Assembly: GCA_050273025.1 (NCBI GenBank)
Contig: CP158635.1
Location: 2,356,001 to 2,420,000 of the forward strand
DNA length: 64,000 nt
Reading direction: 5' to 3'
Source of the DNA: Cenococcum geophilum
Lineage: Eukaryota
This document shows positions 14,802 through 58,600 of the stretch, one piece after another. Each line of letters begins with the position of its first letter. The first letter of the stretch is position 1. The notes beneath the pieces were generated by a model, which did not search any database, was not told the origin of the DNA, and saw only the letters and a program-made list of their open reading frames with translations. A program made the translations under genes and the position numbers.

Positions 14802-14889
14802 TAAAGATATATTACTTTTTACGTAATTAAATTAATATAGCCTTAATAAATATTATATAAAGGTATAATAAAAAGGCCTAGATAATAAT

Positions 14890-29700: not shown

Positions 29701-30474
29701 CCGTTAAAAGGCCGTACGGTTCATTTTACGGACTGTAAGCAGGACTTACGGCCAGCTTAGGGCACCGTTTAGAAGGCAGCCTAGAAGGCACCTCGGGAGG
29801 AGTTTCCTATGTATTTTCTTATGTGTTTTATGGTTCTATTAAGGCAATTATAGAGGCTGTACACAAGTAGTTTCATTTTCCAAGTACCGCTAGTATATAA
29901 TTATAGCACCTGGTATATAAACGCGTAAATACGCGTTCGTGCACCAACCACCTACGTGCTGACTAATTAGGGGGGAGGCGCGTTAGTATATAGACCACGT
30001 AATCTACCTCAATAGAATCGACAGTTACCACTATCCCAAAGAGCATACAATACTATATGTATTTCGTGCCCCGGGATACGACTCACTTGTGCTATTAAGT
30101 TAGTACGAACACGCACCTTAATATCTCTATAACTACTTAATAATAAATTCTAATATTTTAGATTTAGGCTTTTATATATACTTTATAGCCGCTATTATAG
30201 TTATATAGTATATAGTTTAGTAGTTATTAAGATATAGCAATTTAGCATTATTTAGAAGCTAAAATAAAGTTAAATTGCTATATCTTAAAAACTACTAAAC
30301 TATATACTATATAACTGGAATAGCGGCTATAAAGTGTATATAAAAGCCTAAATCTAAAACATTAGAATTCATTATTAAATAGTTATTAAGATATTAAGGT
30401 GCGACTTTTCTAATTTTTAGTAAGTTTTAAGGTGGCCGGCTTGCTTAAGTAGCCGACTTACCTATAGAGTACGT
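23794..30474. mobile_element. Second Fot1/pogo-type MITE (~434 bp), split by the Copia insertion
   Basis: acgtactttataag...ctatagagtacgt termini, TA-flanked; pieces 23794-23869 and 30117-30474; long inverted arms. Confidence 0.88.
23870..30111 (+). mobile_element. Full-length Ty1/Copia retrotransposon, probably GalEa clade
   Basis: 218-bp LTRs at 23870-24087 and 29894-30111 with 10 differences, all transitions; TSD cgcac. Domain order gag (ATG 24467), protease IDTGAS ~26252, integrase LHRRFGHP ~26690, RT KSRLVVQAYND ~28045 and QTDD ~28450, RNase H FTDASF ~28930 and NPxDAMTK ~29318. Confidence 0.95.
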
Positions 30475-32099: not shown

Positions 32100-34792
32100 T
32101 ACTAAAAGACCTAAAATTCTACTATAAAAAAGATACTTAAAGAACTTAAATATAAATTCAATACTAACTCTATACCTAATATAGAATATAAAGCTAAATA
32201 AAAAACTATATAAGAAACTATAGATAATCTAAGTAAGCTTAACACCCTCAATATCTATATAATTAGAGCTACCCTACTAGCCTAACTTACTAAAAAACCT
32301 AAATATACAATCTTTATCAGGATAATAACCAATATTAAAAAGGCCTTAATACTAAAGAAGTATACCGACCCTACTATAAAGGTACTAGTGGAGTATTATA
32401 AAACGCCTAGATATATTCTTATAAAAGGAAGCTAATAAGCTACTAAAATACCAACTATATAAATATAAGTGTCTGAATAAGGTTCTGTAATATAGTAGAC
32501 ACGGTTGCTTGTAACCAATTGGGTTTACCACGTGAGCTAAGTAAGCTTAGGAGATCCACCAAATTCCACCTGTAGAAGTAGAAGGAACGAAAAAGAAGAA
32601 ATCAATTGAGACCAAAAACCCCCCTACCGTGATCCGAATAATAAGATTGTACTTAAAAAAGAAAAGTAGTTAGGATTTAGACCCCTATATAGGATATCCT
32701 AAAACAAACTCTAAGTACTATAGTAGTATTTAGATAAGAACCTAAGTAAAGGATTTATTAGAGTAAGCTCTTTACCTATAGCTATACTAGTAATTATTCT
32801 TAAGAAACCTAATAATAGTTTATACTTCCATATAAATTACTAAGCTTTTAATGCCATTACTATTAAGAACTAATATCTAATCCTATTAATATAAGAGAGG
32901 CCGAACTAATTAAGTAAGGCTTGCTATTATATAAAGCTTAATATTATCTCTATATTTAACTACCTCTATATTATAAAAGGAGATAAATAGCTTACTATAT
33001 TCCATACCTAGCATAGATTATTTAAATACTTAGTAATACTATTTAGCCTTATAAACGCCCTAAGCTCGTTTTAATATTATATAAATAATACCCTATATTT
33101 CTTCCTAAATACCTTTTATATAGCTTATATTAACAATATATTAATATAGAGTAATAAGCTAACTAAATATTGGAAATATATTCACCTTATTTTATAAGCC
33201 CTATATAGAGCTAGTCTATAATCAGATATAGATAAATATAAGTTTTATAAAATGGAAGTTCTATATTTTAAACTCCTTATTTATATAAATAGTATATAAA
33301 TAAACCTAAAGAAAGTTAAAGTAGTTATAAACTAGTAAAAACCAAAGAATATTAAGGACGTAAAAGCCTTTATACGATTTACCAATTTCTACTAACGGTT
33401 TATTAATAACTTCTCTACCCTAGTTTTACTCCTTATAGCTCGAACTTGAAAAAATAAAGCCTTTATCTTTAATAAGGAATATAAAAGGTATATTTACTAC
33501 TATACCTATACTTTAATACTTTAACCTAAACCAAATAAGTGTTATAAAAGCTAATTTATCTAACTATATTACTAGAAGCATTCTATCTTACTATAATAAG
33601 GATAGAGTATTATACTCTATAGTATACTTTTTAAAATAACTAAGCTTAGGTAAATATAACTATAACATCTACGATAAGGAGCTACTAGCTATTATTAGAT
33701 ATTTTAAATAATAGTAATCTAAACTAGAAGGTATTAGATTTTTAATTAAGGTCCTTAGTAACTATAAGAACCTATAATACTTTACAACTATAAAATAGCT
33801 AAGTTATTACTAGGCCCGCTAGTTAGAATATCTATTTTATTTCTAATTCTTAATTATATACTACTTAGGCATTTAAGGCTAAAAGCCTAATACTTTAACC
33901 TAACGCTTATAAGACGCGCTAGTACTAAAAGAAGTACGCTCTTGCTAAAACTAGACCCAACTTTACCCTAAGCTATTTAACCCTTTTATTAATAATCTTA
34001 TAGTATATATCCTTAAAATAACTAACTAATTAATTAAATAGATTAATAATAATAAATACATAAATAACAAGTACATCTAAGAGACGCTTAAGCTAATTTA
34101 AGACGGTGTTAGACGCTTTAAAAGGATCTCCCTATGTAAATATAAAGCTTATAGAGACCGCCTATGCTACTAAAACTATCTAGTTATCCTTAACTATAAT
34201 AAGCTTAAGCTTAAGCTCCTTAAACACGCATATAATCTACTAGTAGCTAGCTACCTAAGCCAAGACAAAATCCTAGGGCTACTCTAATAGGAGTACTACT
34301 AGCCGAATATATATAATATAAAGGTATATCTTTAGCTACTATATATACTAATAAGCTAAAGCTTTATATAAGACGTATAACATCCTCCTAAAGCCACTAC
34401 CTATTCCAGACTAAAGATATAAAAATCCTTAATTAACTTTGTTATTAATCTCCCCGTAAGTAAAGGCTATATAAATATTATAATAGTTATAGACCAACTA
34501 TTTAAGATAGGATACTTAATTGCCTACCCTAATATATTAACACTTATTATTGCCTAACTATTCCTATACTATATATAAAAACTCTATAGGCTCCCTAAAA
34601 CAATTATCTCTAATAAAAGCAGCTAGATTATCTTTATATTTTAGAACAAACTAACTACCTAACTTTATATTAAAGTACTATTGTTTATTATATATTACCT
34701 AGAAATAGAGAGTTAAATAAAACATATAAATACTATAATAGAATAGTATATTTAAATATATATGTTATATTTATAGGATAACTAAATTAACT
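32100..34792 (+). mobile_element. Heavily RIPed Gypsy pol fragment (Gypsy-3: RT, RNase H, partial integrase)
   Basis: De-RIPed: DKLP.HRPY.HK ~32435, GPLYGMS ~32675, YIDDIL ~33126, YDKELLAI ~33670, HGLP ~34586; breaks off abruptly after LQDDW ~34785. Confidence 0.85.
32470..32640. mobile_element. Solo LTR (171 bp) in Gypsy-3 pol
   Basis: tgt...a(t)a termini; TSD ataag at 32465-32469 and 32641-32645; removal rejoins HK-IVL. Confidence 0.82.
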
Positions 34793-37014
34793 AAGCTCGG
34801 ACCCCTAGAACTCAGTCGCCTCCTAAACTTAATTACTACACCAAAATTAACTCTCCAACTTGCGGACCTATTTTCTCTATAACGAGCTGATCAATATAGA
34901 CCAAACTAAGTAGAATTTATAAATAGTTATTATAGATTTTAAATCTGGTTCTTATAAGTTTGCGTAAAAAGCAATGCTTATATATAGTATCCCTTTATTA
35001 ATTTTAAGCGATCAATTAGATGGCAAGTTACTATAATAATTTATACACTAGTATAAATAGTAATTAACTCCTATATAGGGGGCCTTGCTTTTTAATTAGG
35101 TACTTAAACAGAACCTATAAAGATTTAGCCCCTTATATATAATTATAAAAAAATAGTAATCCAAATCTTTAATTAAAATAGCAATACTAAGCCCCTTAGA
35201 AAAATTTAGGTAATTAGCTATTTTAGATAGAATTTTTAGATTAATTTTTTATTTACTTAATTAATAGAAAGTGTATAAGTTAGTTAGGCACGACTATCCC
35301 TTAACTCGTTAGGGTCCTTTAAGAATTCTCCACTGGATTTAATTAGCCACCTATATTAAACCGGGTTATCTAATTAGCTAGTCCCTTATTAATAACTGTA
35401 AGACCCAAATTAATGGGTTGAGGGATAGTAAATTTAAAAATTCTGTAACCTTTATAAAAAGGTATATAGGAAAGTTAATATATTATTAGAATATGTCTAA
35501 AATATATATTAATTTAGAGTTATATTAAGTATATATATAAACTTAATTACTACAGTAAATGCCTTTAAAAGATTTTTTTTTATATTATTACTAAATAATT
35601 ATAAATAGGTGTTTATTATAGAGATAATATTTACTCTAAATTAATTGGTTAATTTCCTTATATATTATGTTATAATATTTAATTACTCTATTGCAGCTCC
35701 CGTTAGGGTCTATATAACGGGTCTATATAGGTATATATATATATATATATAAGAGAGAAACCGTATAGCTAGGGCTAGATATAACCTCTCCTTCTCTTAT
35801 TATATAGCCTATATAGCCTCTCTTCTAATTAGTAACTACTAAGCATAAGTAGATATCTTTTTAAGGCACTATAGAAAAGCTATCTTAATGCGTACTCCTA
35901 GGTCTATCTAGTAGGGTATATAGCTAAGGCTTAGGTTCCGTTTCTAGCTGTTTTGGTTATCTAGGTAGGGTATAGGCTAGTAGCCTATAAGGCTAGTAGT
36001 GGTATAAAAGGTTCCGTTGTCTATATCTACGTTAATATATACAGCTCTATAACTTGCTAAGTTTTACTAAGTTCTACTAAGATATTAACTTCTACTAAAT
36101 TCTACTAGGTTACTAAATTCTGCCAAATTCTACTAGGTTGCCAACGTTCTACTAATTCTATTAGGTTATTAAAAACCTTTACCGTATATGCAACCTTACT
36201 AAAAGGTGGCGCCGCACTTTAAAACTTACACATACCCATCTTCCTATTAAAAGCAATTGATTTTTAGACTCTTAAGACCTAATTCCTACTACCTAGCAAG
36301 CTAGAGGCGGATTCATTTACCTTTTTACACCCTTTTTACCTAAGAGAAAATTCTTTTAAGGGGTGGTTTTAGCTTGTAAGCGAGGCAGGGATAGGAATAC
36401 CAAAACATTAAAACATAGACTTTTCCTAGGTTTTTCTTCTATAAAAAGTAAAAGCCTAATAAAATAGGAGGTGTAGGTATTTTTCTATATCTCCTTTAGT
36501 TAGATTTTCTTTAGTAAGAGAAGGATTGCCTTTTCGGGCTTTTTTGCTAGTAAAAGCCTAACAAGTCCTTTTTTCTAGTAGTTTTTTCTACTTCTAATAG
36601 AGAAGAAAATAACTACTATAGTCTTTTTACCCAGTTTTTCTACTACCTTTTAGTCTAATTTCCCCAGAAACTCTCTAGTAGGGTTAGTAAGGAAAAAGGA
36701 TATAGAAGGATAGTAAAAACTAGGAAGGCTTTTTACCTAGTTTTTTACCTCTATGCTAGGAGATAAGAGACCTAAGGAGGTTATTATCTACTGCAAAAAC
36801 TAGGAACCCCCCCCCCTATAAGCTATAAGCTATAAGCTATAAGCTATAAGACACGAAATGCTAAAGGTAAAGGCTACTAAGCCTAAAATAAAGCCTCCTA
36901 TAGAGATAAGCGATGACGAATTCTTATCTACCTCTTCTACTTGTTCTTCTCTATCTTCCCTATACCTATCTAGAAAAGATAAAGAAGTAAAAGAAGTAGA
37001 TAAGCCGTCTCTAG

Positions 37015-40000
37015 TGTTACGGACGCTTTAAGTACAATATTATAACTACTTGGAGAAGAGACGGAAGAAGCTAGTTGGTTAATACAGGCACGGTCTAGGA
37101 TAGAGCCAATAGAACTATGTGACGAGGAATGGTAACCAAGGTCATATAATATAATCTGTATAATCTGTGTAATCTATAGGATCTATAACAGATTAGATAA
37201 AGTATACGTACATTACGTACAAGAAGGATTTCATAGGAGTACGGTTGTGTATTTAAGGACCCTTAGTCCCTACCTAGATAGTTCCTTCCTTATAGTAATT
37301 CTCAGAATATAATTAGAGTTAATTTATTAGGTAACCACTCCACCAGTTATTATTACGTTGTTAACTTTTATACTTGCATTTCCTACACACCTAGCCCAAT
37401 AACGAGCCTATCGTAGTTCTTGCTATAAGGTTTCGTTATATAATTACTACCTAGTTACGGTATTAATATAAGAAGTCAAACAATATGCCACCAAAAGCAG
37501 CCACCATAATGCCATTAACGGCAGTAACTACTTTAGGGACAGGAGGTGATATTAGTATAGCAGATACTAACTTACAGCAACCTATGACGGTTGGATAGCT
37601 ATAGGAGATAGTTAACTAGCTAATAGCTAACAATATAGTATTGGAAGAAAGACTTAACGGGATAGGAGCAGTAAAGATTAAGCTACTATTAATTAAGAGA
37701 TTTATAGGAGAGAGGTTAAAGCTTAAAGGATTCCTTACGCAGATGCACTTTAAGGTCTTATAGGAGGGAGTAAAGTTACCTATACCTGTGGATTGGATAG
37801 CCTACGCAGGACTATTCTTGTTAGGAAAAGCACTTAAGTGGTTTAAACCTTACCTTACGGAGATACAGGTAAACGGAATAACGACCACTAACTAAGACGT
37901 TTGATTTATGTTCTTAAGTTAGGAAGGATTTACAGAGTGACTTACGCAGATGTTTGGAGACCTAAAAGAAACAACTACAGCGGAAAGAAAACTCCAGAAC
38001 CTTATATAACGAACTTTAGTAATTAAGTATATAATATAGTTCTAGATACTAGCAATATAAGTAAAGTAGAATAATAGGGCGCTTATGGCATAGTACAAAC
38101 AGGGACTTAAGGCTAAAGTTTAGGACGTAATTATCCTAATAGAAGATGCGGACACCCTAAGGGAACTAATAGATTAGGCGATTAAGATTAATAATTGGAT
38201 CTACTAAAGGGAATAGGCTAATAGAGGCTAGAATAAAGTTCTATAGTTATATAAGGCGCAGAGTACGCAATAATAAAAGCTAAGTTAGAAACTATGGTAT
38301 AGCGCAAAGCTAATAGACCTAAGTGGTACTAAAGAAGCCTATAAGAGATAGAGCAAACTATAAAAACCCAGAGGATAAGGATTAAGTAATTAAAGGTCTA
38401 AGGAGCAGAGGCCAAATCAGGGATCTTAACAGCAGAAGATATTCAGGCGGACTTTATAGCAAGAGAAATAGTTTAAAAAAGGAGCTTGCATAAATTGCGG
38501 AAAATAGGGTTATTACGTTAGAGACTATAGAAGTAGGCAGAGTTACTATATAGTAAAAGGTATAAGACTAGTAGACGATATATACGTACAGAGGGATAAT
38601 AATATGCTGTAAGGAACAAAAAAATGTTTAATTAGAAGTTTTGCGTTTTGTTATAATAACGTATACCAAATTTATAAGGACGCTAAGTACGGCGCAAGCT
38701 ATTGGCTATAGGAGCTAGCACTTATAAAATATAGAGAAACCAACGAACTAGTTTGTAGATCGGATATTAAGAACGATAAATTTAACCTAGGCGAAATATT
38801 CTATAATAATAAGGCAATAAGGGCCGCTTATTAAAAGCGAGTAAACCTTAGAGATGTTATACTAGAGGTAGAGGATAATTCCACTACAGAATAGGGAATA
38901 TTAGTAGGGATTAAAACCCCACTAGATACGATGTCTATCGCTTTATAAGACGTAAGAGAAGTAGAATAGCAAACCACTTCGGCACTTAATAAAGGCAAAA
39001 GGCTAAAGACTTAAGATTCTTAAGACGAGATAAGAGACGACTAAGATTCTTAAGAAGAGATAAGGCATACCTAAGGACCTATAACGGACGAAAACCGATA
39101 GAGCAGGGCAATAGCTTAGTTTAGAAACATACAAATAAGCTTAGGATAGAGTTTCCCATAGGCACAAGACTCTTAAGATAAGATAAGTGAGATTTAAGAC
39201 TCTTAAGACAAGATAAGAACACTATAAACGCCTAGTTAGACTAAGGCGGGAGCTAAGCTTAAGTTAGAAGCAAGCTTAGGATTAAAGAATCTAAGGAACT
39301 AAGATTTCGGAGTACAAATAAGGACACCTATAGGTAAGAGGTAAGGAGCTTCTTTACAGATTAGAGAATCTGTAATATAAATAGCAGTTAGATTAAGAGA
39401 CAGATATATAAACCTAAAAGACTTACTAGGGGAACGCAGTGTTTAGCCTAAAGATTAAAAGTTTAATACTAGGATTAAAAAGCAAGACAACTTTAAGGAT
39501 TAGGGCGTAAGGCGTAAACCAAAAGAAACTATAAAAGAGTTTAGACAAAGAATTATCGCATAGCAAGAACAGAAACTAGATAAGAGATTTAGTATATTAG
39601 GACGTATAAAGGATAGAGCACTAGTATAAAGAATCACTAATAGGTTAAGAGTAGGTATACTAAGAGCTAAGTGACTTACCGAACTGGAAAATAAAGAGGA
39701 TTTAGGGATTTTAACTAGGTTTAAGGAATAATATATAAAGGGCTGTCATAATACAGTAATAAGAAGATACTTCCTTATGGATAAGCCGTATATACTCTAG
39801 TAGCTATACCAAAAGTAGTATAGGCAAAGGCATAATGATAAGTAGGAAGATTTCTATATATAGTTAGATAAAAAAGTTATCTAGGACCACCTAATTATAG
39901 AAAAGGCCATAACGTATATTAAAGGAGCCTTAATTATAATATTAAAGGATCTAGAGGAACGTTTAAAGGACTAGAGAAGTAAAAGACGCATCTTAGTACC

Positions 40001-43000
40001 TATAAATAAAGTTATAATATTTAAATTAGCACAATAAAGGTTTAAACTTAGGGATAAAGATAAGCTAAGAGTTAACCTAAAGCACCTAGCATACTATACG
40101 TTATTATAGATTGCGTATATAGACGATATATATAACATATATAAGAATCCAAAGGAAAAGAATTAGAAATATCCTATAAGGATATACTGGATAACGGACG
40201 AGTAATAGTATAGGAATGCTAAATATATATATAGATGGCATCTAGCAGAGGTTTAAGAAAAAGGAAGTTTAGTATTTTAACCAGAAAGATTCCTTATAGA
40301 AAAATACTTAGACGGATGACAGTGGTGGGAATGCCTAGAAAACACGTGTTTATAGTATATTAAAGATAAAAAGCGATCTAGGCATTGGCTAAAGAATAAG
40401 CCAAGTATATTAGGATTAAGCAGCTAATAGTTAGGAAAAGTAGAGGCCTATAGGACTAGAGGGAGCTAGTGGTAGAGCCTTAGACCTTTAAAGGAATTTA
40501 AGAATAATACCTAAATTTATGAATTAATTGGTAAGATTAGCAGTTTAAAGCGCTAATAGATAGTAGAGCAACGCAAAACTATATCTTACTAGTAGTAGTT
40601 AAAAGAATAGGACTACCTTATAGATAAAAGGAGTAACCTTACCTATTAGTTATAATTTTAGGAGATCTAATAACCTATAGGGGAGGGATTATTAATCTTA
40701 AAATAGGACCTATTTAGATAACTATTAAAGGGAGATAAATTAAGATGTCTTTTAATATCCTACTATTGGGACGGGATAAGGTAGTATTAGGCATACCTTA
40801 ATTATAGGAATATAATCTAAGGATTAATTAGATTATAGGTTAGGTTAATATTAAAAATACTTAATGCCGTAAAATATAATAATAAGCTAAGTTGGTATAG
40901 TACTAAGTAGGAGCAACCTATAAAGAAATAGAAAAAGAACTAAGTTATATACTAAAGAGATACTATAAGTATAGCAAAAAACTATAGTTACTAGAAAGTA
41001 AAAAGCTGTTAGAATATATAGTATAGGACTATAAGATAGAGTTAGAACTAGGAATAAGTTTAAAGTTCTTTCTAATCTATAAGCTTATTAAAAAAGAAGG
41101 TAGAGCGTTAAAAGAGTTTATTTAGGAAAATTTATAAAAGGGATATATTAGACCATCGCAGTTATTAGCGGGTTATCCAGTACTATTTATACTAAAGAAA
41201 AATGGTAAACTAAGGCTGTATATTAACTATAGATAGTTAAATAGTATTACTAAGAAGGATAGGTATCCTTTACCCTTAATTAGCGAAATCTAAGATAGAA
41301 TAGGTAATGCGTAAATCTTTATAAAGATAAATCTAAGATGGGCGTACTATTAGATTAGGATTAAGGAAGGCAATAAATAAAAGGCAGCCTTTAGGTTAAA
41401 GGAAGGACTATATAAACTATTAGTTATATAATTTGGGCTTATAAACGCACTAGCAACGTTCTAAAAGCGTATTAATAATATATTAAGAGAATACTTAGAT
41501 GAATTTATTATGGTATATCTTAATAATATTATTATCTACTTAATAATAGAGGAAGAATACGGAGAATACATTAAATAGGTTTTAAAGAGACTATAAGAAG
41601 AATAGATGCTAGTAGTAATTAAGAAATACGAGTTCTTTACTAGGAAGACCGATTTTATTAGATTTATTATTAAACTAGGCCAACTTAGTATAGATCTAAA
41701 GAAGATTAAGGCTATAGTAAATTAGTAGAAACTAGAAAACGTTATATAGTTAAGATTATTTTTAGGGTTTTGTAATTACTATAGAAGGTTTATAGCGTAG
41801 TGGTTAAAGAATATTAAGCTATTTACGCGGTTAATAAAGAAAGAAGAACTATAGGTATAAGGAGAGGAATAAAAAGAACTCTTTAAAAAAGTTAAAAAGA
41901 TATTTACCTAAGAGCTAGTTCTTAAGATCTATTAACTAGGACTAGAGACGGTTATAGAAATAGATGTATTAGACTATATACTAGGGGTATACTTTATATA
42001 AAGGTATTAAGATGGATAGCACCTAGTAGTATACTATAGTCGGAAAATAACACCGCTAGAGTTAAACTATAACATCTATAATAAGGAGTTATTAGGTATA
42101 GTTATAGTATTAAAGGAATAGAGAGCATTCTTATAAGGCATAGAGAAACTATTTATAGTTAAGACGGATTATAAAAACTTAATAGAATTCCTAATAACAA
42201 AGGAACTTAACTAAAGATAGGTTAAATAGGTAGAGATACTTACAGAATACCATTTTAAGATTTAGTATACTAAAGGTATAAATAATACGCGGGCAGATGC
42301 TCTAAGCCGTAAAGCTAAATTATAAAATAAGGAAAAGCTATCGGGGGCTTTATTGCGAAAAGATATAGACAGATTAATTAGGTATAATTATCCAAAAATT
42401 ATAGCAACTTAAGAAGATAGTAAACTAGAGAAAGTTCTATAAAATACCGGAAAGCTTTTAGGTATAAAGAATTCTAGAAGTATAGCTAGAAGATCTACAA
42501 ACGGATATATACAAAAAATTAAGAAGTAAAGTATATCCTAAGAAGTATAGCAGAGCAGTTTATAGAAGACTTCTATAAGGGACTAACTTAAGGATATAAT
42601 AGAGCTACGAGCTTAGTGTTAAGACTTTAAGAGGAGTATATTATTAACGGAATCTAAAGGATAGCTAGAAAAGTTATAAAGAAATATCTAGACTACTAAA
42701 GGAATAAACTAATAAGGCATAAGCTATATAGAGGGCTATAACCTATTAAAATACTAGAGAGACTATAGAAGGTTATATTATAGGACTTTATTATTAAGTT
42801 GCTAAAATTAAAAAATCCTATTATCGGATAAGATTATAACGCGATCTTAGTAATAGTGGATAAGCTTATAAAGTGGGGATACTTTATAGCATATATAGAA
42901 GAAATCTTAGCAAAAGATGTCGCTAAAATCTATATTAAGGAAGTATTCGTAAAATATAGAGCACTAAGTAAGATTATATTAGATAAAGATCTAAGATTTA

Positions 43001-44990
43001 TAGCAGCATTCTAGGAAGTATTCTTAGTAAAGTAGGGGGTTTAAGTAGTAACTTCTACTGTATATTATCTATAGACAGACGGTTAAACAGAAAGATTAAA
43101 TTAGATACTAGAGCAGTACCTAAGGCATTATATTAATTATACATAGAACAATTGGGTATTGCTATTATTAGTTACATAATTTATATATAATGTAATACCT
43201 TAAGAAGGGATAGGCATATTACTATTTAAGGCAAATTACGGATATAAGCTAAGGATATTATTATTACTATAGCAAATAAAGAAAACGAGTAGTACAGCTA
43301 AAGAAAGAATAAAGACGTTAATAAATCTTTATATAGACCTTATAGAATTAGTAAAGAAAGTATAAGAGAGAATAAAAAAGTACTATAATGCGAAGAGATC
43401 TAAGGGACTAGATCTTAAGGAGGAAGATAAAGTATGGCTACTACACAAAAATTTTAAGAGTTAATAACTAAGCAAGAAGTTGGACTATATTAAACTAGGA
43501 CCTTTTAAAATTACATAGAGGATTTTATTAATTACGTTTAAGCTAGACCTACTAGCTAAAATAAAGATCTACCCTATATAGCATATCGCAATGCTAGAGC
43601 CAGTATATAGGAATATTAAGCCACCGGTTTATAAAGTAGACATATATAGAGGATAAGAAGAAGACGAATAGTAAGTTTTAAAGATCGTTAGTTATAAGGA
43701 CATTAACGACGAAATATAGTATAAGGTTAAGTGGATAGGCTACACTAAAACTACCTAGGAGCTACTAAAGAATTTAAAGAATGCTATAAAAAAGGTATAG
43801 GAGTATTAAAAGAGATTAGGTTAGATAGTATTAATAAAGAAGAATTACTAAAGAACGAGTTACCTAAGGGGGACCTAAGAAGAGCAGTTACTAAACTACT
43901 TAGATCTATTTCCTTCTCTATTAGAAGAGAATCCATTCTTTTATTACCTAGTTTCTATAAACCTTATTCTATAAGTTTCTACTCCTTAAAACAAACCTTC
44001 TTACGCATCTTCTTAAGACGGATTAGCCAAGCGGACGCCGCTAAATAAGACTTAAGAGCCCGTTGCTAAGTATCGGCAGCCTCCTGTTTAGCGTCCCAAG
44101 ATCGGCGCAATTTAGCAAGAGTAACAGATAGTTTATTATCTAGCCGTATAGCAGCAGATTAAATATAAAACCCTAAGATAAATTAATTAGGGAACCAGAC
44201 GACTATTAAGAGTAATAGGTCGCGTATATTTAGTATTAGAAGTAGAGCGAACGTCACAGGACGAATAAATATTCGCTTTAGTACACTTTAAGTAAGAGAA
44301 CGGTTATCGCGAAGATAGGTTCGCCAACGCAATATAAACCAACCCCTTTTTTAAATAACGAGAATATAGAGACGGTATAATCTTACTAAGAGACAATATC
44401 GCAGCAATAGTACGAGCACAACGAGCAGTTAAGGAAGAAGAAATTGCTTTAGGTATAATAAGCAATAATATTAACCAAATTAATTAGACGGATATTATAC
44501 CTCTAATAAACAACTTAAAGATATTTTAAATCTTCAAGGACAAAGATAAAGAGGAGGGAGATGGTGTTACAGACGCTTTAAGTATGATATTATAACTACT
44601 TAGAGAAGAGACGGAAGAAGCTAGTTAGTTAATATAGGCACGGTCTAGAATGAAGCCGATAGAACTATATAACAAGGAATGGTAACCAAGGTTATATAAT
44701 GTAATCTATATAATCTATATAATCTATAGGATCTATAACAGATTAAATAGAACACACGTATATTACGTATAAGAAGGATTTTATAGGAGTACGGTTGTGT
44801 ATTTAAGGACCCTTAGTCCCTACCTAGATAGTTCCTTTCTTATAGTGATTCTCAGAATACAATTAGAGTTAATCTATTAGGCAACTACTCCACCAGTTAT
44901 TATTACGTTGTTGACTTTTATACTTGCATTTCCTACACACCTAGCCCAATAACGAGCCCATCGTAGTTCTTGCTACAAGGTTCCGTTATA
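37015..44990 (+). mobile_element. Full-length Ty3/Gypsy chromovirus (Gypsy-2)
   Basis: 426-bp LTRs at 37015-37440 and 44565-44990; TSD tctag/tttag; gag ATG 37485; CCHC knuckle 38487-38528; protease LIDSGA ~40553; RT YLDD ~41516; RNase H ~41960; integrase ~42570-43300; chromodomain ~43660-43800; PPT 44548-44564. Confidence 0.95.
43900..44456 (-). pseudogene. Antisense accessory gene of Gypsy-2: Zn2Cys6-like cluster plus helical tail, one intron
   Basis: De-RIPed C-x2-C-x6-C-x13-C-x2-C-x8-C; splicing a 55-nt intron (44227-44173) restores the frame through a split Trp codon. Confidence 0.65.
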
Positions 44991-47900
44991 TTTAGCTTAT
45001 ATAAGAAACCAAAGAAAAAGAAGCCACCCCTTATTGTCTCCTAAAAAAGATAGCTAAAATCTAAAAAGAAACCTAGTAAAAATGAGGTCCTCTAGGGCTA
45101 GTTTATACTTCCCCCCTCCTTTAAAACAATTCCTATAAAAGGCCTTAGAAAACCTAACCCAGGCCTATCTAAGGCTAGAAGGAGAAAGTAAGGAGCAAGT
45201 TAAATATATTAAGGACGACGTACAAAGAATTATAGTAGGAGAAAATCCTTCTATAAAAGAAACAGAAAAGGAAAAACAGGAGACAGATATCCTAAAAGGA
45301 CTAGTAAAAGAAGTAAGAGCCCTCCACAAGGAGGTAGCCCCTAAAACCTACGCAGAAAAGTTAAAGAAGGGCCTCTCTTCTTCTACTTACTCTTCTTCAT
45401 TGTCGTCTCCTCCTTCCTCTACTACCTCTTCTTCTTCTTCTTTACCCCCTACCTCCTTAATTCCCCCTACTAGTAAGGTAACTAGTAGCACTACCAGTTC
45501 TACAAGCCCTACCTCTACTAGAGGGAAAAAGAAGCAGCTATAAGAAAGAGGACTAGTCCTAGTTACAGACCAAAAGGACTAGCCTCTAGATATCTTCTCT
45601 ATACGAAATACAATTAATTAATAATTTATGTCTAAATTGCAAATAGAGAAGCTAGTTATAGCTTCTATAGCTAGAACTAGAGAAAAGCAGAATATTCTCC
45701 TTATAATAACGGAGGAATATAATGCAGATTTTCTAGTTAAATATAAAGAAGTCTAGTCTAGCTGCTTCTCCTTTAAAAGAGAATAAAAACTAGAGCCCTA
45801 GGCCCAAATAGTAGCTTATAGCGTCCCTATCCCCCCTTTCCTAGGAGAAGGAGGCTCTAAACTTCTAAAGGAAGAAATAGAGACCTTTAATCCTATTAGG
45901 ATACAGGGATAACCTAGATAGATCTCTTCTAGGGTAAAGAGATATAATCCACAAACTAGGTTTGGCTCTATAGTATTTACTATAGAAAATAAGGAGAAAA
46001 GATAGGAAATCCTAATTGCAGGGGTAGCTACTAAGGTAGTTAAATACCTAGAGGTCTCTCCTACTATATAGTGTACAAGCTGCCAAAAATTTGGCTAAAT
46101 AGGAGATAGATGCTCTATAAGGGCCTGTTAGTTTTATATAGCAGTATACCTATCTAAAGACCACTCCTATTTAAGTTGTAATATAATAGGCAAGCCTTGC
46201 GAATATACTACCCCTCTTTGCATTAATTGTAAAGAAAAACACTTTACTACCAGTAAAGACTGCCAGTCTCTTAAAGTAGCTAAGTTAATATACCAATAAG
46301 TATATACTTAGAAGGTTCTATACAGGAAGAAGAAAAAATCTCCCTAGCTTCTAAAACTAGGGGAGAAATCTCCTTTATATAATATAATGTAGGAAAAAGA
46401 TAAGAAGTATAGCAAACCCTACTAGAAATAGGATTTAGGAGAAAAATAAATATTATCCTAGTATAGGAACCTAGTACCTGGAAAGATAGACAAAAAGGAT
46501 CCTACTTCTCTATTCCACATCCTGCATTTAACCTTATCCTCCCTAGCAATCTAGCTATTCGCCCTAGAGTAGCTATCTATATAAGGAAAACTAGTTCTAG
46601 TATCCTATAATATAGAAACAGAGAGGATATCTATAAAGATACAGATACTATAGCACTAGAAATCTATGGCCAATTTAAGAAATTTCTACTGCTTAATATC
46701 TACAATAAGAGATAACTAGACGAGAACTCTAGAACCTAAAGTAATAGTAGATCTACTATCTCTAGGGCTATTCTAGAACTAGAAATAGGCCTCCCCTTTA
46801 TGCTAGTAGGAGACTATAACCTATACTGTATAAGGTGGAACGCACTAGCTAGGAACTTAACTAGAGAGGCTAAAGAACTAGTAGATTGGTTAAATAAACA
46901 CAACTACCAATTACTAAATTCTGATAAATAAGAAGGGACCTTTTATAGATCTAATATAAGAGAAAAATCGATTATAGACTTAGCCTTCTACTTAGGAAAC
47001 TTTTAAGAAAATACCTAGGATAATTGGACTATAATAGAAGAAACAGGATTTAATCACAAGACTATAGCCTTCTCTCGATTTACTAGAGAGACGTAAAGAT
47101 ACCTAAACCCTCTTTAAGAAACTCCGTTTTCTATAAAAAAGGCAAACTGGAAGCTCTTCTCTACTTCTTTAATAGAACTAGTTTAAAAGCTAGAACTAGA
47201 AGCAAAAATCTTAGTACTAGAAGAACTAGTAGGAGAAACCCCCTATATAGAGATAGGAGAAAAAGGTCCCTTAGCCTCTCTAGAGGATTTGTATAGACTT
47301 AGGGATAAAAGTATAAGTACGCTAGCAGATAATCTAGTTATAGATCTTACTAGCTATATTAAGCTAGTAGTAGAGAAAGCTATTCCTAGATCTAGAACCT
47401 ACGAATTCTTTAAACTATAGTGGAATACAGAGCTTCTATAAAAAAGGAAAAAAATAGCAAAACTAGGAAGACTTCGAGAAGAACAACCTACTAGAAGTTC
47501 GAGACTAGAAGCCTATAAGGAAGCTAAAAATCAATACTTCTATGTAATAAGAGAAGCTAAAACTAATTGCTAGAATAGCTTCCTAGAAAAGGCATAGGGA
47601 AAAGAGATCTTTACTGCCCTAAAATATATAAAGGAGAAAACATTACAAATAATTCCTAGTCTATAGTATTGTAAGGATGGAACTACGAGACTAATAGAAA
47701 GCTTTAACGACTAGTGTAAAGCTTTTATTACTACTCTATTTCCTAAACCCCCTTCTTCTACTAGCTTTATAGAGTTGAAGAACTATACTATAGATAGTAA
47801 ATAGGAATGGCCAGAACTAGAGAAGACGGAAGTTAAATAAGCAATCTTCTCTAGCTCTAATAAAAAAGCTTTAGGGCTAGATAAGCTATCCTTTACAATC

Positions 47901-50900
47901 CTATAAAAGGCCTACCCTACTATAGAAGATCTTCTATATAGAATCTATAGGATCCTATTTACCCTAGGTTATTAACTAAAAGGCTAGAGAGAGGCTTAAG
48001 GAGTTATTCTCCCTAAAGTAAATAAAGAGAACTACTTTCTACTAAAGTCCTATAGACCTATCTCCTTACTAAACTACCTAGGAAAGACTCTAGAGAAGAT
48101 CTTTACCACTAGATTAGGATATCTAGCTAGTACTACTAGCTTACTTTAAGACTCGCAACTAGGAGGAAAAAGACAGCGGTCCGCAATAGACGCAGTCCTA
48201 CTACTCCTAAATAATATCCAGTCTAAAAATAATAGGAAAAAAGCCAGACAAAGAATAGCTACTACGCTATTTCTAGACGTAAAAGGGGCCTTTAACTATG
48301 TCTTTGCAAACCAGCTTCTATCTATCTATAAGGAACTAGGGCTACCTATAGCGTTTACGCAATAGGTAGCTACCTTCCTTAGCAATAAAAAGCTACAGCT
48401 CTGCTTTAATAGACAAATATAAAAAAGGTAGAAATAGAAACAGGGATACCACAGGGCTCGCCTATATCCCCTATTTTATTTTTACTATATATACATAATA
48501 TCTACAGCCTATAGATAGAAGGTGCCTATTCCCTTAGCAATATAGACGATTTTGCAATTATAGTTACTTTAAACTTAGCTAAATCCAATTATAAAAAGCT
48601 AGAGGGAATAGCGCTAGAGCTAATGTCTAGAGCTAAAGAAGCTGCTATTAGTTTTGATATTAGCAAAACAGAGCTTATACACTTCTATAGTAAGCGTACC
48701 ACTATAGAAGATAGGCTAAAGCTAGGAGATATAGAAATATCCCCTAAACCCCTAGTTAGGTGGCTAGGGGTATTTCTAGACTCTAAGCTTACTTTTAAAT
48801 AATATATATAAATAAAAATCTCTAAAGCAAAAACAGCCTTCTATTTAATTAGAAGACTAGGTAATATATAAAAAGGTCTATCTCTATAAGCTCTACAACA
48901 GCTCTATATAGCTTACGTTACTACTATAGCAGACTATAGAATATAATGCTAGTGGAAAAGCGAATCTAGAGACTACCTACTAGCTAGGTACCAATCTCTA
49001 CAAAATGAGGCCCTAAAACTAGTTTTAGGAACATTTAGAGGATCTCCTACGCAAGCTATAGAAATCGAGGCCTCTATCCCTCCTCTTAGAATTAGATTTA
49101 AAAAGCTTTGCAATAGCTATATATTAAGAATCCTAAAATTTAAAGAAAACCACGTAATTAAAAAGGCCTATATAAAAGAGATTAATAAAGATAGGGAGGA
49201 ACTAGTAACTAGTTCTAGTTCTAGTCCTAGCCCTAGAAACTCTACTATAAGATACCTTCTATAGCTAAAAACTCAACTACTATCTCTAGCTTCTAGAGTC
49301 CAGCAACTAATTTAAAATTGGAAAATAGAGAGAATCTCTTTAGATTGGTAAAAACTGTAGTCTCTCCCTATTTCTGCATCCTTTTCTATCTCTAGGGGTA
49401 GTAAAGAAGAAGCTGTATAAGAATATTTAAGACTAGTAGAAAATTTACAAGAATCCCTAGAATGGGACTTAGTAGATATATACTATATAGATAGCTTTAA
49501 AGATAGTAAATTAAGTGTAGCGGCCGTATGTAAAATAGGGGAGAGAAATAGGATTAAATACGCAATAAATTGGAATCTAGGGCCTTATATGGAAATTATA
49601 GGCGTAGAACTTTATACAGTCTATAAGGCCCTAGAATATCTAAAATAATAAAGACTAAAAGAGGAATAAGTTTATATCTTTATAGATAGCCAAGCAGCTA
49701 TTAAAAGATTATAGCTTAATTCTCTTACAGGGGGACAAGAACTAGTCTTTAAAATTACGCAAAGCTGCTCTTATCTAGCTAGCAAGAATATCTCTATTAA
49801 CTTTTATTGGGTTCCTAGCCACCTAGAAATCTACAGAAACGAAATAGTAGATAAGCTAGCTAAAAAGGGCCTCTCTAGAAGAAAAATATAATCTTCTTAT
49901 ATATCCCTAGCCTATATAGGGAGAGCAGCAAGAGAAAAAATACTAGGATAGTGGAAAAGTAACTAGCAACAGAAAAAAAATAAAGGAAAATACTATACTA
50001 GGATCTCTAGAGGAAACTACTTTTTATCTCTTAAAGCCCCTAAGGATAAATATCCTAAAAGGTTACAATTAGCTTTCTATTAACTAAAACTAGAAAAAGG
50101 CTTCTTTAAATCCTTCTCTAAGACAATAGGGAAGGATAAAGAAGGTAGATGCTTTAAGGACTGTAGAGCTATATAGACTTCTAAGCACCTATTACTAGAA
50201 TGCAGACTATATAGAGAAGAGAGAAAAGAAATGCAAAGACAACTAGGCTCTTCTCTCTCCCTAAAGAAGCTCTTTTATATAGAGAAAGGAAAAAGGGCGC
50301 TTTTCTTATTCCTAAGTAAGACAGAAATAGCTACTAGAAAGTGGCTAATGGAAGTAAAAGCTTTAAAAGGAGGTAACTCCTACTAGACTTCTAGTAAATA
50401 GACAGTAGTAAGTAAAAGGACAGAAATAAACTATATAATGTACAGGGGCAGGCGTTAGGATTTGTTTACCATTTCTTTTACTATTTTTCTACTGTTTTAA
50501 TACTACCTAATAGTTGTCATAACCTAGTATTTTACTAGGGAGCGGTAAACCTCTAGTTTAGAGGTTTATAAACTACTAGGACATAGCTACTAGTATATAT
50601 TAAGCTGCCTAAAAAGGATTTATATATATAAAACTATAGCGCTATAGCCCAGAGGCTGCATATGTAGTATTGTACGTAGTATAATATAATAGATATAAAA
50701 ATAAAAATAAAAATAAAAAATTTAGGTTATTAAATTCTATTAAATTCTACTAGGTACCAAATTCTGCCAAATTCTACTAAATTCTGCTAAATTCTGTTAG
50801 GTTGCCAAAACTCTACTAAATTTTGTTAAATTACTAAGTTCTACTAAATTCTGCTAGGTTAACAAGTTCTGCTAAATTCTACTAGGTTGCTAAAGTTCTA

Positions 50901-55600: not shown

Positions 55601-58600
55601 CTAGGTATCTTATATTAAGCTTCTTTAATAGTTAACGGGTCTTAATATTTGTTAAACGTAATAGAATCTTATCGCCTACTCCGAAATGCTTGTCCTAGTG
55701 CTTGTAGTTGTACCAAAGTCTCTACTACTCTTGGGTATCTTATAGGCTCTGCTTTGCATGCTTCTATTACTCCTCCCATTCTTAGAGGTATCCTTATACT
55801 CTTCGGTAGATGTCTTTAAACTTCCCGGTAGGATTCTATAACTAATTATACGGCCTTAGCCAGTAATTGTTAGGTATACTATTAAACCTAAATAGTCGGA
55901 CGCCATAGGCAATCTAGATTAGTGCATACTTATACAATATATATTGCTTTGAATTATAAGCGTACTCCGCGTACGGAAGTAGCTCGCACTAGTTGTTTTG
56001 CTAGTAGTTTAAATATATCTATAGGTAAGACTCTAGTTCCTAGTTCTGGCGTTCCGTTTACCCATCTATCTATAAATAGAAAGCTATACTATAATAGTGG
56101 TCTATCTTTAAATAGAAGCATAGATCCGACTAGTACTAGCTTATAAAGACGCTGCCCCTATTAGTAATAATAGAGTGCAGCTAATCTACTTTAAGAAAGC
56201 ATTTCTCCTTAATTAGGTTGGTAAGCTCTTATGCGTTAATCGTCTTGTTAACGGAAAGGTATTGGACGTACTTTAAAAACCTATTAATAAGTATAAGGAC
56301 CAAATCGTATATTCGTCCTTAGCCATCTTTAGATAGCGGGAGATCCGTAATAAAGTCTATGGCGTAATGTCGCCATAGCTTACTAGCGGGGGGAACTGAT
56401 TTAAGTAGACCCTATGGCTTATACCTACGGATCTTATATACTTAACACTTCTTACAATAGCTAATGTACTCCTTTGCTTCCTAATTAAGCCTTAACCAAT
56501 AGTATTTGCGCTAAAGTAATTCTACTGTCTTTGCTTAACTATAGTGGCCGCCTAAAGGATCATCGTGATTCTTTATAAGAATCTTCTGTCGTAGATTTGC
56601 TTCTTATAGCACCTAAACCTTACCACCTCTATATAGTAGGCCCATTGGGTTTAGTTCCCAATGGTAGCACCTAGCAGCTTCCTTTCTATTACGTTTCCGG
56701 TCTACTTCCGTATTAAGAATGGCATAGGAAGCATCCCTCTGTTATACCTCACGGATGAGATCCGTTAACTCTTTGGATAGTTCCTAGGTAAAAGCTATTT
56801 TATCCCATACTGCTCTAAGTATAAGACTAAATAGTACCATAGATCTTATAACTCTTTAATGCGCGTGCGTTAGGAAGGCCGCTACGAGGTTAAAGTCCTT
56901 TAGTTGTTATAGGGCTCCGAGTTTTAATTGCTCTATAGCTTCGCTATTGGTTTAAGGGGATAGCTTAGCAATTAGGGATAGTATATTACTAGGTTCCGAG
57001 AATGTATTAGGGACGTCCTATCTAGGTATATTTAGACCCTTATTAGTAACGGACCGGGTACTAGCTAGAACGTTAGTGGAAACCAATAGGGCTTATACCG
57101 CCTAAGACTCGGTGTATAAAGCTATAGGTGCTTAAGTATCCCACACCTAGAGCTTGTTCTATAATATAGGGAGTAAGATATCTATTATCTGTTTTCCTTC
57201 TCCCGTTTTAAAGCCTTTAGTATAGTCTGGCCGTCGTAACGGTCCATTAGTAGGGTTGTTTTCCCCTAGCTTGTATTTAATCTTAAAATCAAATCGCGTA
57301 AGCTCCTCTACCTATCTAGCTTATTAAGGTATAAGCTCCTTTATAGTTATAAAGTAGTGTAAATTATAGTGATCTAAGAGTATACAAGTGGTATAGCTCG
57401 CGTGCTTAAGGTAATATCGCCACTATTTAAAGCAGTTGACTATAGCTAGTAGTTCCTTGTCATAGGTATAATACCTAACTTTAGGTCCCTAGAATTTTCT
57501 GCTATAAAATACTACTGGTCTCTAATGGAGCTGGGTAGCGTCTGGATGCCTATTGGGTTATAGTAGGATACCAGCAAGGGCAAAATTCGATACATTAGTA
57601 ATTATTATTAATGGCTAATCTGGGTTAAAATGCCGCAGCAATAGAGCTTCCGTAAACTTTACGCGAAGTTCCTAAAAGGCCTCCTAAACCTTTCCGGGCT
57701 ATAACTATAGCTTATACTATTTAGTTAGTTCCTTTTTAGTTTTCTTCCTTACCACCTTTAAGCTTTTTGCTCCTTAGGTTAGGTCTTAGGAAGCTTCTAT
57801 AATATAATTGGATAGGTATCGGGTGACGTCTAAGTAGTCATAGATAAAGCGCCTATAGAAATTGGTAAAGCCTAGGAATACTTAAATATCCTAGTAGCTC
57901 TCTAGCTCCGGCCACTCCTAGATTATCTACACCCGTACTAAGTCTATAACTATACCTATAGGCGTTATAATATAACCTAGGAACTCAACCTGCTTAGTGT
58001 TAAAGATATACTTTAACGCTTTAGCGTAGAGGCCCTAATTATCTAAACGTTCTAGCACTTCGCGGACGTGTTGCTTATATTAATCCTTATCTTCTAAGTA
58101 GATTAAGATGTTATCTAAATAGATGACGTATATGCGGTTGACTAGTCCCCCTAAGGCTCTATAAATATACAATTAGAATGTCGTAGGCGTATTGGCTAGC
58201 CCGAAAGGTATTACTAGATACTTAAAGTGGCCGTATTGGGTCTTAAAAGCGGTCTTCTACTTATCCCCTTCTTTAATACGGAGCCTATAATAGGCGTCTT
58301 ATAAATCCAACTTTATAAAGATCTTTACCCTAAATAGTTAATCCAGCATTTTACTAACTAGTAGTAGTGGGTAACGGTTCTTAATTGTAATCTTATTAAG
58401 ACCGCGATAGTCTATATATAGCCTTATAGTTCTATCTAGTTTTAAGATAAAGAGGATTAGCGCGCCTAACGGCGACTTACTAGGCCGGATCCATCCCTTT
58501 TCTAATAAGCCATTAAGGTACTCCTATAGGATCTCAAGCTCTTTACGCAAGAGGTTATAGATAGGAAGGTTCGGCGGTTATTTACCTTCTTCTAGATTAA

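What the first reader, a model, noticed from the sequence alone, without database searches (positions are those of the whole stretch)
43900..44456. Antisense Zn2Cys6-like gene with a frame-restoring intron in Gypsy-2
The minus strand reads, de-RIPed, MPKAISSS...PCSRCSKKGLVCVALANPSSRQPFSCSECTKANIHSSCDVRSASDAE-W. A 55-nt intron (44227-44173; donor RIPed from gtacgc to atacgc, ctaat branch site, ttag acceptor) splits the Trp codon t|gg. Exon 2 continues as an E/Q/R/L-rich, probably coiled-coil segment. Caveat: four of the six Cys codons are now TAT/TAC and are inferred from G>A reversal.
Basis: partly seen in the sequence, partly recalled or inferred. Interest (0 to 1): 0.72.

Follow-up and report, generated by a model that had tools for sequence, protein, structure and literature searches.

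The report
Spliced antisense gene overlapping retrotransposon Pol
A mutation-wrecked fungal jumping gene carries a real, spliced extra gene on its opposite strand for a small six-cysteine, coiled-coil protein, and the same DNA also encodes a long tail of the element's own polymerase protein, so both strands code at once.

Summary
Confirmed and extended. This RIP-killed Gypsy copy holds an antisense gene (44456-43784, about 205 codons, 55-nt phase-1 intron). Across 96 genomic copies the six Cys codons are TGY or TAY. Seven of 1,194 copies have the GT donor, none C or T. RNA contigs from three metatranscriptome studies are spliced exactly there, and a natural intact protein has the predicted Trp junction. 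It is not a canonical Zn2Cys6 member: Pfam score below cut-off, no basic recognition loop, and the predicted dimer is antiparallel. The scan found this antisense gene before in other windows; Botrytis brtn is the published precedent. Not seen in my searches: Pol does not stop at the chromodomain. In nine intact or partial natural Pol proteins the frame runs about 280 codons further, across the whole antisense gene into the 3' LTR. All nine intron lengths in relatives (55-133 nt) are 3n+1, as that frame requires. Best reading: a 3'-LTR-driven accessory protein regulating its own element; that function is inferred, not shown.

The parts
37015..37440 (+). 5' LTR of the Gypsy element (426 nt); target-site copy TCTAG at 37010-37014
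   Evidence: (repeat D4)
40469..43791 (+). pol (protease, RT, RNase H, integrase, SH3-like, chromodomain), RIP-mutated; frame shift between 42415 and 42514
   Evidence: tblastn of intact P0102; Pfam on P0102 and on the window frame
43792..44685 (+). C-terminal tail of Pol, same frame as integrase and chromodomain; crosses the antisense gene and the PPT and ends at TAA 44683-44685 inside the 3' LTR
   Evidence: one HSP, P0102 aa 678-1392 on 42514-44682; 9 natural Pol-type proteins with the tail; apparent stop at 43849 is CAA in 8 of 96 copies
43784..44172 (-). exon 2 of the antisense gene: about 70-residue helix, then a Ser/Pro/Thr-rich tail; stop TAG 43786-43784
44173..44227 (-). 55-nt phase-1 intron splitting a Trp codon; donor AT in this copy, GT in others
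   Evidence: RNA joint in three runs
44228..44456 (-). exon 1 (76 codons + 1 nt): basic N-terminus and six-Cys motif; start is ATA here, ATG in 16 of 96 copies and 32 of 73 relatives
44256..44366 (-). six-cysteine motif C-x2-C-x6-C-x13-C-x2-C-x8-C (four codons now Tyr in this copy)
44447..44500 (-). alternative upstream 54-nt GT..AG intron that removes the first start codon
   Evidence: spliced in RNA contigs of X3 and X12, retained in X1, for the homologous copy L035; donor and acceptor states in copies
44551..44564 (+). polypurine tract; also codes part of the acidic stretch of the Pol tail
   Evidence: sequence
44565..44990 (+). 3' LTR; holds the last ~39 codons of the Pol tail and the probable antisense promoter; target-site copy TTTAG at 44991-44995
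   Evidence: antisense RNA contig reaches about 20 nt into the LTR in L035

Best explanation
A clade of fungal chromodomain Ty3/Gypsy elements has a doubly coded 3' region. SHOWN: the minus strand holds a spliced accessory gene (about 205 aa: basic N-terminus, six-Cys head, about 70-residue helix, Ser/Pro tail), and the plus strand keeps the Pol frame open across it into the 3' LTR. The window's copy of both is dead through RIP. INFERRED: the antisense RNA starts in the 3' LTR. Its intron survives retrotransposition because the packaged RNA is the other strand. Because the intron is 3n+1 long, losing it exactly would shift the Pol tail, so the tail locks in its phase. The protein most likely binds zinc, dimerises through an antiparallel coiled coil and works in the nucleus on its own element (LTR DNA or chromatin), tuning sense transcription, as HBZ does for HTLV-1. 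The Pol tail opposite exon 2 is mainly a frame-keeping linker; its acidic end may have a job of its own.
For: Gene: Cys/Tyr-only codon states and G retention in less-mutated copies; GT donors; P0076, a natural continuous protein with six Cys and Trp at the junction; exact 55-nt GT..AG joint in RNA contigs of 3 of 3 contig runs from 3 studies, 0 mismatches to L035; RIP-proof purine/pyrimidine changes pile up at antisense third positions (exon 1 Cys part 18/48 vs 8/48 and 3/48, p=0.002; exon 2 helix 55/71 vs 30/72 and 24/71, p=0.0005). Pol tail: 9 natural proteins with chromodomain plus tail, 5 of them with RT as well; 73 of 74 located introns are 3n+1, in nine lengths; length changes are 3n in 8 of 8 intron classes against 4 of 20 in the LTR beyond the stop (Fisher p=1.6e-4); no unexplained fixed stop in the Pol frame opposite the intron or 5' UTR in 4 of 4 sequence sets. 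Dimer: score 0.52, best control 0.00; that mark was reached by 21 of 30 solved homodimers and 0 of 23 monomers in the tool's microbial test and by 17 of 29 eukaryotic homodimers; runs agree in at least 86% of contacts, pLDDT at least 77. Nuclear or regulatory role of such genes elsewhere: PMC7264820, PMC10186651.
Against: No test here shows zinc binding, DNA binding, nuclear location or any effect on the element. The Cys head folds poorly (pLDDT 50 or less) and lacks the basic loop of DNA-binding Zn2Cys6 proteins. The RNA seen comes from a broken copy (start ATA, internal stops), so it shows splicing, not protein. Contigs give no strand; strand is inferred from the GT..AG ends. Opposite the exon-2 helix the Pol tail drifts (37% identity, 16% of differences conservative; Pol second positions vary most). 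The third-position test on the tail's end was not significant in the 74-sequence set, and neither was the chromodomain control. The dimer call was made with zinc riding along and without the alignment; only 1 of 7 eukaryotic dimers with no older solved relative passed in the tool's test.
Confidence: 0.45

Rival explanations
1. The protein is a tether or cofactor for integration or particle handling, not a transcription regulator: an antiparallel dimer puts one Cys6 head at each end of a long rod, suited to bridging two LTR ends, chromatin, or the acidic end of the Pol tail.
For: Predicted contacts pair residue 133 with 94/97 and 143 with 83/87, i.e. antiparallel. No Gal4-type recognition loop. 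The last 75 aa of the Pol tail hold 23 acidic against 3 basic residues.
Against: No partner was tested. The acidic stretch is partly forced by the polypurine tract. The model is the predictor's own confidence.
Confidence: 0.2
2. It is a captured, divergent Zn(II)2Cys6 transcription factor that binds CGG-type sites in the LTR as Gal4/Ppr1 do.
For: Six Cys in Zn2Cys6-like order followed by a dimerising helix; best PDB sequence hit is Ppr1 (E=0.56); weak Pfam Zn_clus hits.
Against: Below cut-off. Gly in 20 of 23 at the loop position where host Zn2Cys6 genes have Lys in 18 of 20. C3-C4 spacing 13 against 5-6 in 20 of 20 host genes. Only the second half of Zn2Cys6 aligns. Antiparallel, not parallel, dimer predicted.
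Confidence: 0.15
3. The protein is an anti-silencing factor that shields the element from host RNAi or heterochromatin.
For: Inference only: the gene is kept under selection in a family that reached over 1,000 copies in a RIP-active genome.
Against: No similarity to a known suppressor was found; the copies were heavily RIP-mutated anyway.
Confidence: 0.12
4. The antisense RNA is what matters (double-stranded RNA or transcriptional interference) and the protein is incidental.
For: Antisense RNA is made even from a broken copy; RNA-level roles are proposed in PMC7264820.
Against: Codon-position bias in both exons and invariant Cys/Tyr columns show selection on the protein.
Confidence: 0.05
5. 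For the 3n+1 pattern alone: the constraint comes from an unspliced read-through product of the antisense gene, and the Pol tail is only its shadow.
For: The read-through frame shares third positions with the Pol frame in exon 1 and the intron; many database proteins of 76-101 aa are such read-throughs.
Against: In this genome's family the read-through frame stops inside the intron in 96 of 96 copies and has 6 fixed stops in exon 2. The Pol frame is open from integrase to the LTR in all 9 natural proteins found, also opposite exon 2 where it is no shadow. Those 9 were found by searching for long proteins, so they are selected for being open.
Confidence: 0.1

Closest known systems
brtn, the antisense gene of Boty (BcGypsy1) chromoviruses of Botrytis cinerea and Sclerotinia (Zhao et al. 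2011, seen only as cited in PMC7264820, PMC8365987 and PMC4227169)
   Same: Fungal Ty3/Gypsy with a chromodomain; extra gene on the antisense strand between the pol core and the 3' LTR; function unknown.
   Different: Sequence homology to brtn could not be tested (paper not held; no brtn text in the two supplements searched). The passages read mention no Cys6 motif, intron or Pol overlap. Here the gene lies wholly opposite an extended Pol frame.
Plant aORF-3R genes (maize Grande gene23, rice RIRE2, Silene Retand; PMC7264820)
   Same: Antisense, 3' position, own promoter, conserved across copies, proposed nuclear regulatory role.
   Different: No shared domain found. Those are described as lying between pol and the LTR, not overprinted on Pol.
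HTLV-1 HBZ and the APH proteins (PMC10186651, passages)
   Same: Antisense transcript from the 3' LTR, spliced and unspliced 5' variants, about 200-residue protein with a dimerising helix.
   Different: Retroviral bZIP protein with no Cys6 head and no homology; its repressor role is shown, while the role here is only inferred.
Fungal Zn(II)2Cys6 binuclear cluster proteins (PF00172; Gal4, Ppr1)
   Same: Six Cys as two C-x2-C-x6/8-C halves, followed by a coiled coil.
   Different: Below Pfam cut-off; basic recognition loop missing; longer C3-C4 linker; long antiparallel rod predicted instead of a short parallel one (the Gal4-type arrangement is recalled, from no call).
DUF3716 (PF12511), a fungal six-Cys domain
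   Same: Similar Cys order; profile-profile match over 43-51 columns; weak Atlas lead at 0.77; distant hit P0074 matches it at E=0.01.
   Different: No member reaches the Pfam cut-off; the hhalign score (22.1) is barely above the best Cys-keeping shuffle (20.7 of 40); this genome's DUF3716 copies lie in other DNA with no pol match within about 1.5 kb.

Membership tests
Ty3/Gypsy chromovirus | two LTRs with TG..CA-type ends, target-site duplication, PPT | tested here: met
   LTRs 37015-37440 and 44565-44990, 5-nt TSD differing by one C/T, PPT 44551-44564
Ty3/Gypsy chromovirus | PR-RT-RH-IN order with a chromodomain after the integrase | tested here: met
   P0102 has these domains in this order and aligns along the window's pol
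aORF-3R / brtn-type antisense accessory gene | ORF antisense to gag-pol between the pol core and the 3' LTR, present in most copies | tested here: met
   1,194 pattern matches in the genome; Pol-frame match on the opposite strand in 59 of 80 relatives, the other 21 having 600 nt or less of contig downstream
aORF-3R / brtn-type antisense accessory gene | transcribed antisense | tested here: met
   spliced GT..AG joint on the antisense strand in RNA contigs of three studies; strand inferred from the splice ends
brtn protein family | sequence homology to Botrytis BRTN | not testable with these tools
   no BRTN sequence was obtained
Zn(II)2Cys6 (PF00172) | six Cys as C-x2-C-x6-C-xn-C-x2-C-x6-8-C | tested here: met
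   C-x2-C-x6-C-x13-C-x2-C-x8-C in L035, L107, P0076 and others; the linker is longer than the 5-6 in 20 of 20 host genes
Zn(II)2Cys6 (PF00172) | Pfam score at or above the curated 21 bits | tested here: not met
   15.6 bits (L035 exon 1); 13.6 bits (P0076); 1 of 27 relatives listed at all, 10.6 bits
Zn(II)2Cys6 (PF00172) | basic recognition loop with Lys between Cys2 and Cys3 | tested here: not met
   Gly in 20 of 23, Lys in 2; host genes have Lys in 18 of 20
Zn(II)2Cys6 (PF00172) | binuclear zinc cluster fold | tested here: inconclusive
   models of the head have pLDDT 50 or less; no fold match
Zn(II)2Cys6 (PF00172) | zinc binding and sequence-specific DNA binding | not testable with these tools
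   needs biochemistry
DUF3716 (PF12511) | Pfam score at or above 22 bits | tested here: not met
   no hit for L035 exon 1 or P0076; P0074 16.2 bits
DUF3716 (PF12511) | profile-level homology over the whole motif | tested here: inconclusive
   probability 39-54%, score 22.1 against a shuffle maximum of 20.7

The most novel reading that the evidence does not exclude
A fungal retrotransposon clade overprints two selected proteins on about 670 nt of opposite strands across a spliceosomal intron: a Cys6-headed antiparallel dimer that controls or tethers the element, and a 280-residue integrase tail with its own function, such as nuclear import through the basic motif opposite the intron and partner binding through the acidic end inside the LTR. 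The tail's frame locks the intron's phase and blocks intron loss. This would be a complex-retrovirus-like regulatory module that arose independently in fungi.
Probability: 0.3. Interest if true: 0.8.

Novelty: new variant of a known kind. Interest (0 to 1): 0.6.

Why it matters
Antisense accessory genes of LTR retrotransposons have been noted for years, but their function is open (PMC7264820). This family makes the question testable: a natural intact protein, a splice junction seen in RNA, a defined dimer prediction, and intact relatives are all in hand. The overlap is unusual in itself. An intron whose length is held to one phase by the protein on the other strand gives a clean case for studying overprinting and intron retention. 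It also corrects annotation: in RIP-mutated copies Pol looks as if it ends at the chromodomain, and the 280-residue tail is missed.

Tried and rejected
A first, tighter donor pattern found nothing. Pfam on five RIP-mutated translations gave no family. A 'longer' homolog search with a mutated exon 1 found nothing. IMG/VR had no relative. Atlas hits were all under 0.9, unnamed Ascomycota clusters; leads only. Sequence and profile searches of solved structures gave nothing significant, nor did fold searches. The raw-read run X24 covered only LTR pieces (31 partial reads), so strand and start could not be read. The idea that the sense frame is a separate ORF3 with its own start was rejected: the stop before it is CAA in 8 of 96 copies, the Met is Thr in several relatives, and natural Pols read through. 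The idea that this genome's DUF3716 repeats are the same cassette was rejected. An upstream in-frame start in the LTR was looked for and not found. The 18 length changes on the R/Y tree were not counted as independent events, because lengths are scattered as if by recombination. The synonymous-shuffle control shows that an open Pol frame opposite exon 1 is expected (83%) and opposite the first 72 codons of exon 2 is not rare (16%) for a single sequence, so openness alone was not used as proof. The GC-correlation test for the donor alone was not significant (p=0.06). Rows dropped: 8 of 80 relatives (frameshifted, truncated or interrupted) before the alignment; P0074.

Full report
SETTING. The window is a nest of decayed repeats at 25-43% GC, with no reading frame above 224 codons. 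The finding lies in an LTR element with LTRs at 37015-37440 and 44565-44990, a 5-nt target-site duplication that differs by one C/T, and a polypurine tract at 44551-44564. The element has a TpA/ApT index of 1.58. Of 105 differences between the window's gene and the least-mutated copy, 81 are G>A or C>T from that copy to this one, mostly in TpG/CpA and CpG contexts. This is the signature of fungal RIP (established knowledge). The genome has 178 Mb in 7 contigs.

OBSERVATION CHECK. Read as it is, exon 1 (44456-44228) starts with ATA and has one stop. Four of six Cys positions are Tyr codons, and the 55-nt intron begins ATACGC and ends TTAG. A genome-wide pattern search gave 1,194 matches, 7 with G at donor +1 and 0 with C or T. 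I pooled 105 loci into 96 distinct copies. This sample is selected: 30 most like the window, 30 most like L035, the first 30 on contig 1, 7 picked for GT, 8 picked for two Cys. In it the six codons are TGY in 33, 56, 7, 27, 72 and 23 copies and TAY in nearly all the rest. Copies with G are richer in GC at five of six Cys sites and at the start codon (p 0.001-0.01), but not at Cys5 (p=0.25) and only marginally at the donor (p=0.06); the GC value included the tested base. Copy L035 has all six Cys, a GT donor and a CTGAT branch site. None of the 96 copies is free of stops in both exons, and L035's element is interrupted by an insertion of about 3 kb.

RELATIVES. phmmer with L035 exon 1 found 75 proteins at E up to 0.001, most 50-110 aa long, as expected when a gene caller reads into an intron. 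P0076 (152 aa) is continuous over both exons, has all six Cys, and has Trp exactly at the junction. A metagenome scan confirmed 566 of 601 candidate stretches and returned the best 80. In 74 of these 80 an intron was located at the same place. One contig (L106) has most of the intron deleted and five were truncated or degenerate. Twenty-three of 80 have GT. In 73 aligned relatives the Cys codons are TGY in 44, 62, 25, 41, 73 and 46. Fifty-nine of 80 show the element's Pol frame on the opposite strand downstream; the other 21 have at most 600 nt of contig there. The long-intron families have no close match in this genome (68-78% over exon 1 only), so they come from other hosts.

RNA. Twenty of 24 listed runs hold at least half of the sampled words of L035's gene. 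I laid four. In all three contig runs (X1, X3, X12; three studies) a contig skips exactly the 55 nt, GT..AG, with no other letter different from L035. X3 and X12 also skip a 54-nt GT..AG intron upstream (window 44500-44447) that removes the first start codon; X1 retains it. The next Met, codon 27, sits four codons before Cys1 (ATG in 15 of 96 copies). The longest contig reaches about 20 nt into the 3' LTR, and two end about 60 nt past the antisense stop, with no coverage further into pol. That fits an antisense RNA from the 3' LTR, but contigs show neither strand nor true ends. The raw-read run gave only partial LTR matches. The transcribed copy is broken, so this shows splicing, not protein.

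SELECTION ON THE ANTISENSE PROTEIN. RIP changes only C/T and G/A, so purine/pyrimidine changes are RIP-proof. In 74 aligned sequences they fall at antisense third positions in 21/28 columns against 10/28 and 7/28 (exon 1 start), 18/48 against 8/48 and 3/48 (Cys part), and 55/71 against 30/72 and 24/71 (exon 2 helix). In exon 1 the third positions of the two strands coincide. In exon 2 they do not, and the pattern follows the antisense frame.

THE OTHER STRAND. The located introns have nine lengths (55, 61, 64, 112, 115, 124, 127, 130, 133), all 3n+1; 73 of 74 fit, and the exception is a copy frameshifted upstream. Length differences are multiples of three in 8 of 8 classes, against 4 of 20 in the LTR beyond the stop (p=1.6e-4; the classes are not fully independent). 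The reason is on the plus strand. The frame that carries integrase and the chromodomain continues through exon 2, the intron, exon 1, the 5' UTR and the PPT to a TAA at 44683-44685 in the LTR. The apparent stop after the chromodomain (43849) is CAA in 8 of 96 copies. All but two other common stops in that stretch have sense alleles among the 96, and those two read Gln or Trp in relatives. Opposite the intron and the 5' UTR/LTR part, the Pol frame has no unexplained fixed stop in 4 of 4 sequence sets. In the UTR/LTR part the other five frames have 1-7 each. Opposite exon 2 the Pol frame has 1-2 per set, and the chromodomain control has 0-1. A search for long proteins with the tail of L107 returned 9 of 1,187 candidates, all with a chromodomain and 5 with RT as well, 457-1,402 aa, with 301-322 residues after the chromodomain's TWEP motif. 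Their insertions fall opposite the intron (20, 23, 44 and 49 residues). P0102 aligns to the window in one frame from aa 678 to its end.

HOW MUCH THE TAIL MATTERS. Opposite the exon-2 helix it is 37% identical with few conservative changes, and its second positions vary most, so there it follows the antisense protein. Opposite the intron it is 65% identical, and opposite the UTR and LTR 55%. Among five divergent representatives, transversions at the tail's end fall 80/71/130 on codon positions 1/2/3 (10 non-independent pairs), but the larger alignment showed no significant bias there, nor in the chromodomain control. So the frame is kept; selection on the tail's residues is likely only at its ends and is not proven. 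One inferred reason to keep it open is to place Pol's stop near the RNA's 3' end and avoid nonsense-mediated decay. An inferred consequence is that exact intron loss would shift the tail. L106, where the intron is mostly deleted, keeps the antisense frame and shifts the Pol frame.

WHAT THE PROTEIN IS. The motif is C-x2-C-x6-C-x13-C-x2-C-x8-C. Pfam Zn_clus scores 15.6 and 13.6 bits against a cut-off of 21. The best PDB sequence hit is Ppr1 at E=0.56, and it aligns the first half of the motif to the second half of the cluster. Against 20 host Zn2Cys6 domains from the same genome hhalign matches 16 columns with score 21.1 (best of 40 Cys-keeping shuffles 17.4); against 12 DUF3716 domains it matches 43 columns with score 22.1 (best shuffle 20.7). 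The loop between Cys2 and Cys3 has Gly in 20 of 23 sequences where the host genes have Lys in 18 of 20. AlphaFold gives a confident helix over residues 77-151 of P0076 and a poor model of the head; fold searches found nothing. A two-copy prediction with zinc scored 0.52 against a best control of 0.00, with contacts of an antiparallel coiled coil; runs agree in at least 86% of contacts and pLDDT is at least 77. The mark was reached by 21 of 30 solved homodimers and 0 of 23 monomers in the microbial test, and by 17 of 29 eukaryotic homodimers but only 1 of 7 without an older solved relative. It supports dimerisation and does not show it. I therefore do not file the protein as a Zn2Cys6 member. 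It may still bind zinc in a similar way.

MECHANISM. Shown: a spliced antisense gene under selection, nested opposite an extended Pol frame; the window's copy is dead. Inferred: a promoter in the 3' LTR; intron survival because only the sense RNA is reverse-transcribed; zinc binding; nuclear action on the element's own LTR or chromatin (0.45). Rivals are a tether for integration (0.2), a true CGG-binding factor (0.15), an anti-silencing factor (0.12) and an RNA-only role (0.05).

KNOWN CONTEXT. Antisense genes between pol and the 3' LTR are known from plant elements and from Botrytis Boty (brtn), with unknown function (PMC7264820: passages and parts 1-2 of 3 of the text; PMC8365987: passages and a search of two supplements; PMC4227169: passages). 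Zhao et al. 2011 was not held, so homology to brtn, and whether that paper describes an intron or an overlap, stay open. HBZ is an analogy only (PMC10186651: passages). Seven full-text searches (listings and abstract starts seen) showed no paper on a Cys6 antisense gene or on a Pol tail overlapping one in fungal elements; most subscription journals and bioRxiv supplements are not covered. The scan's own notes report antisense Cys6 genes in this and other genomes many times. They were read after my own tests and did not change the reading. None of the snippets shown mentions the Pol overlap, and two look-ups for it returned nothing.

VERDICT. The feature is real, a new variant of a known kind. 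The antisense gene alone would rate about 0.5. The RNA-confirmed junction and the two-strand coding with a phase-locked intron raise it to 0.6.

Noticed in passing
window 44447-44500 (-); L035 1233-1286: A second, 54-nt GT..AG intron is spliced in two of three RNA contig sets and removes the first start codon; a shorter form could start at Met27, just before the Cys motif.
   Followed up: partly
L206/L207 (G000 C7, about 815-827 kb): The least-mutated copy is split by an insertion of about 3 kb in pol and has stops, yet it matches spliced RNA contigs from three studies with no mismatch.
   Followed up: partly
L106 1250-1270: Most of the intron is deleted at a short shared sequence; the antisense frame is kept (P0006) and the Pol frame is shifted.
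   Followed up: partly
L186-L205 (G000): A separate RIP-mutated repeat family, homologous over at least 2.5-3 kb, carries a DUF3716 six-Cys domain; no pol match within about 1.5 kb. Element type not determined.
   Followed up: partly
window 52-3371 (+), 32676-33870 (+), 55950-58631 (-): Other Gypsy pol remnants; P0076 finds no related antisense gene in them.
   Followed up: partly
window 42415-42514 (+): The Pol frame of this copy shifts between RNase H and integrase.
   Followed up: no
window 17402-23640 and 45012-50724: Two long inverted copies of another repeat at 77-88% identity; one begins right after the 3' LTR.
   Followed up: no
window 11900-12345: Arrays of 12-nt and 27-nt units, partly inverted against each other, with open frames on both strands; similar arrays occur in L204.
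   Followed up: no
window 14374-14803 and 30112-30403: Two near-perfect hairpins (arms 210 and 142 nt, loops 8-10 nt), MITE-like.
   Followed up: no
metagenome loci L108-L185: Intron-length classes and exon-2 variants are scattered over the tree, suggesting frequent recombination between element families.
   Followed up: partly
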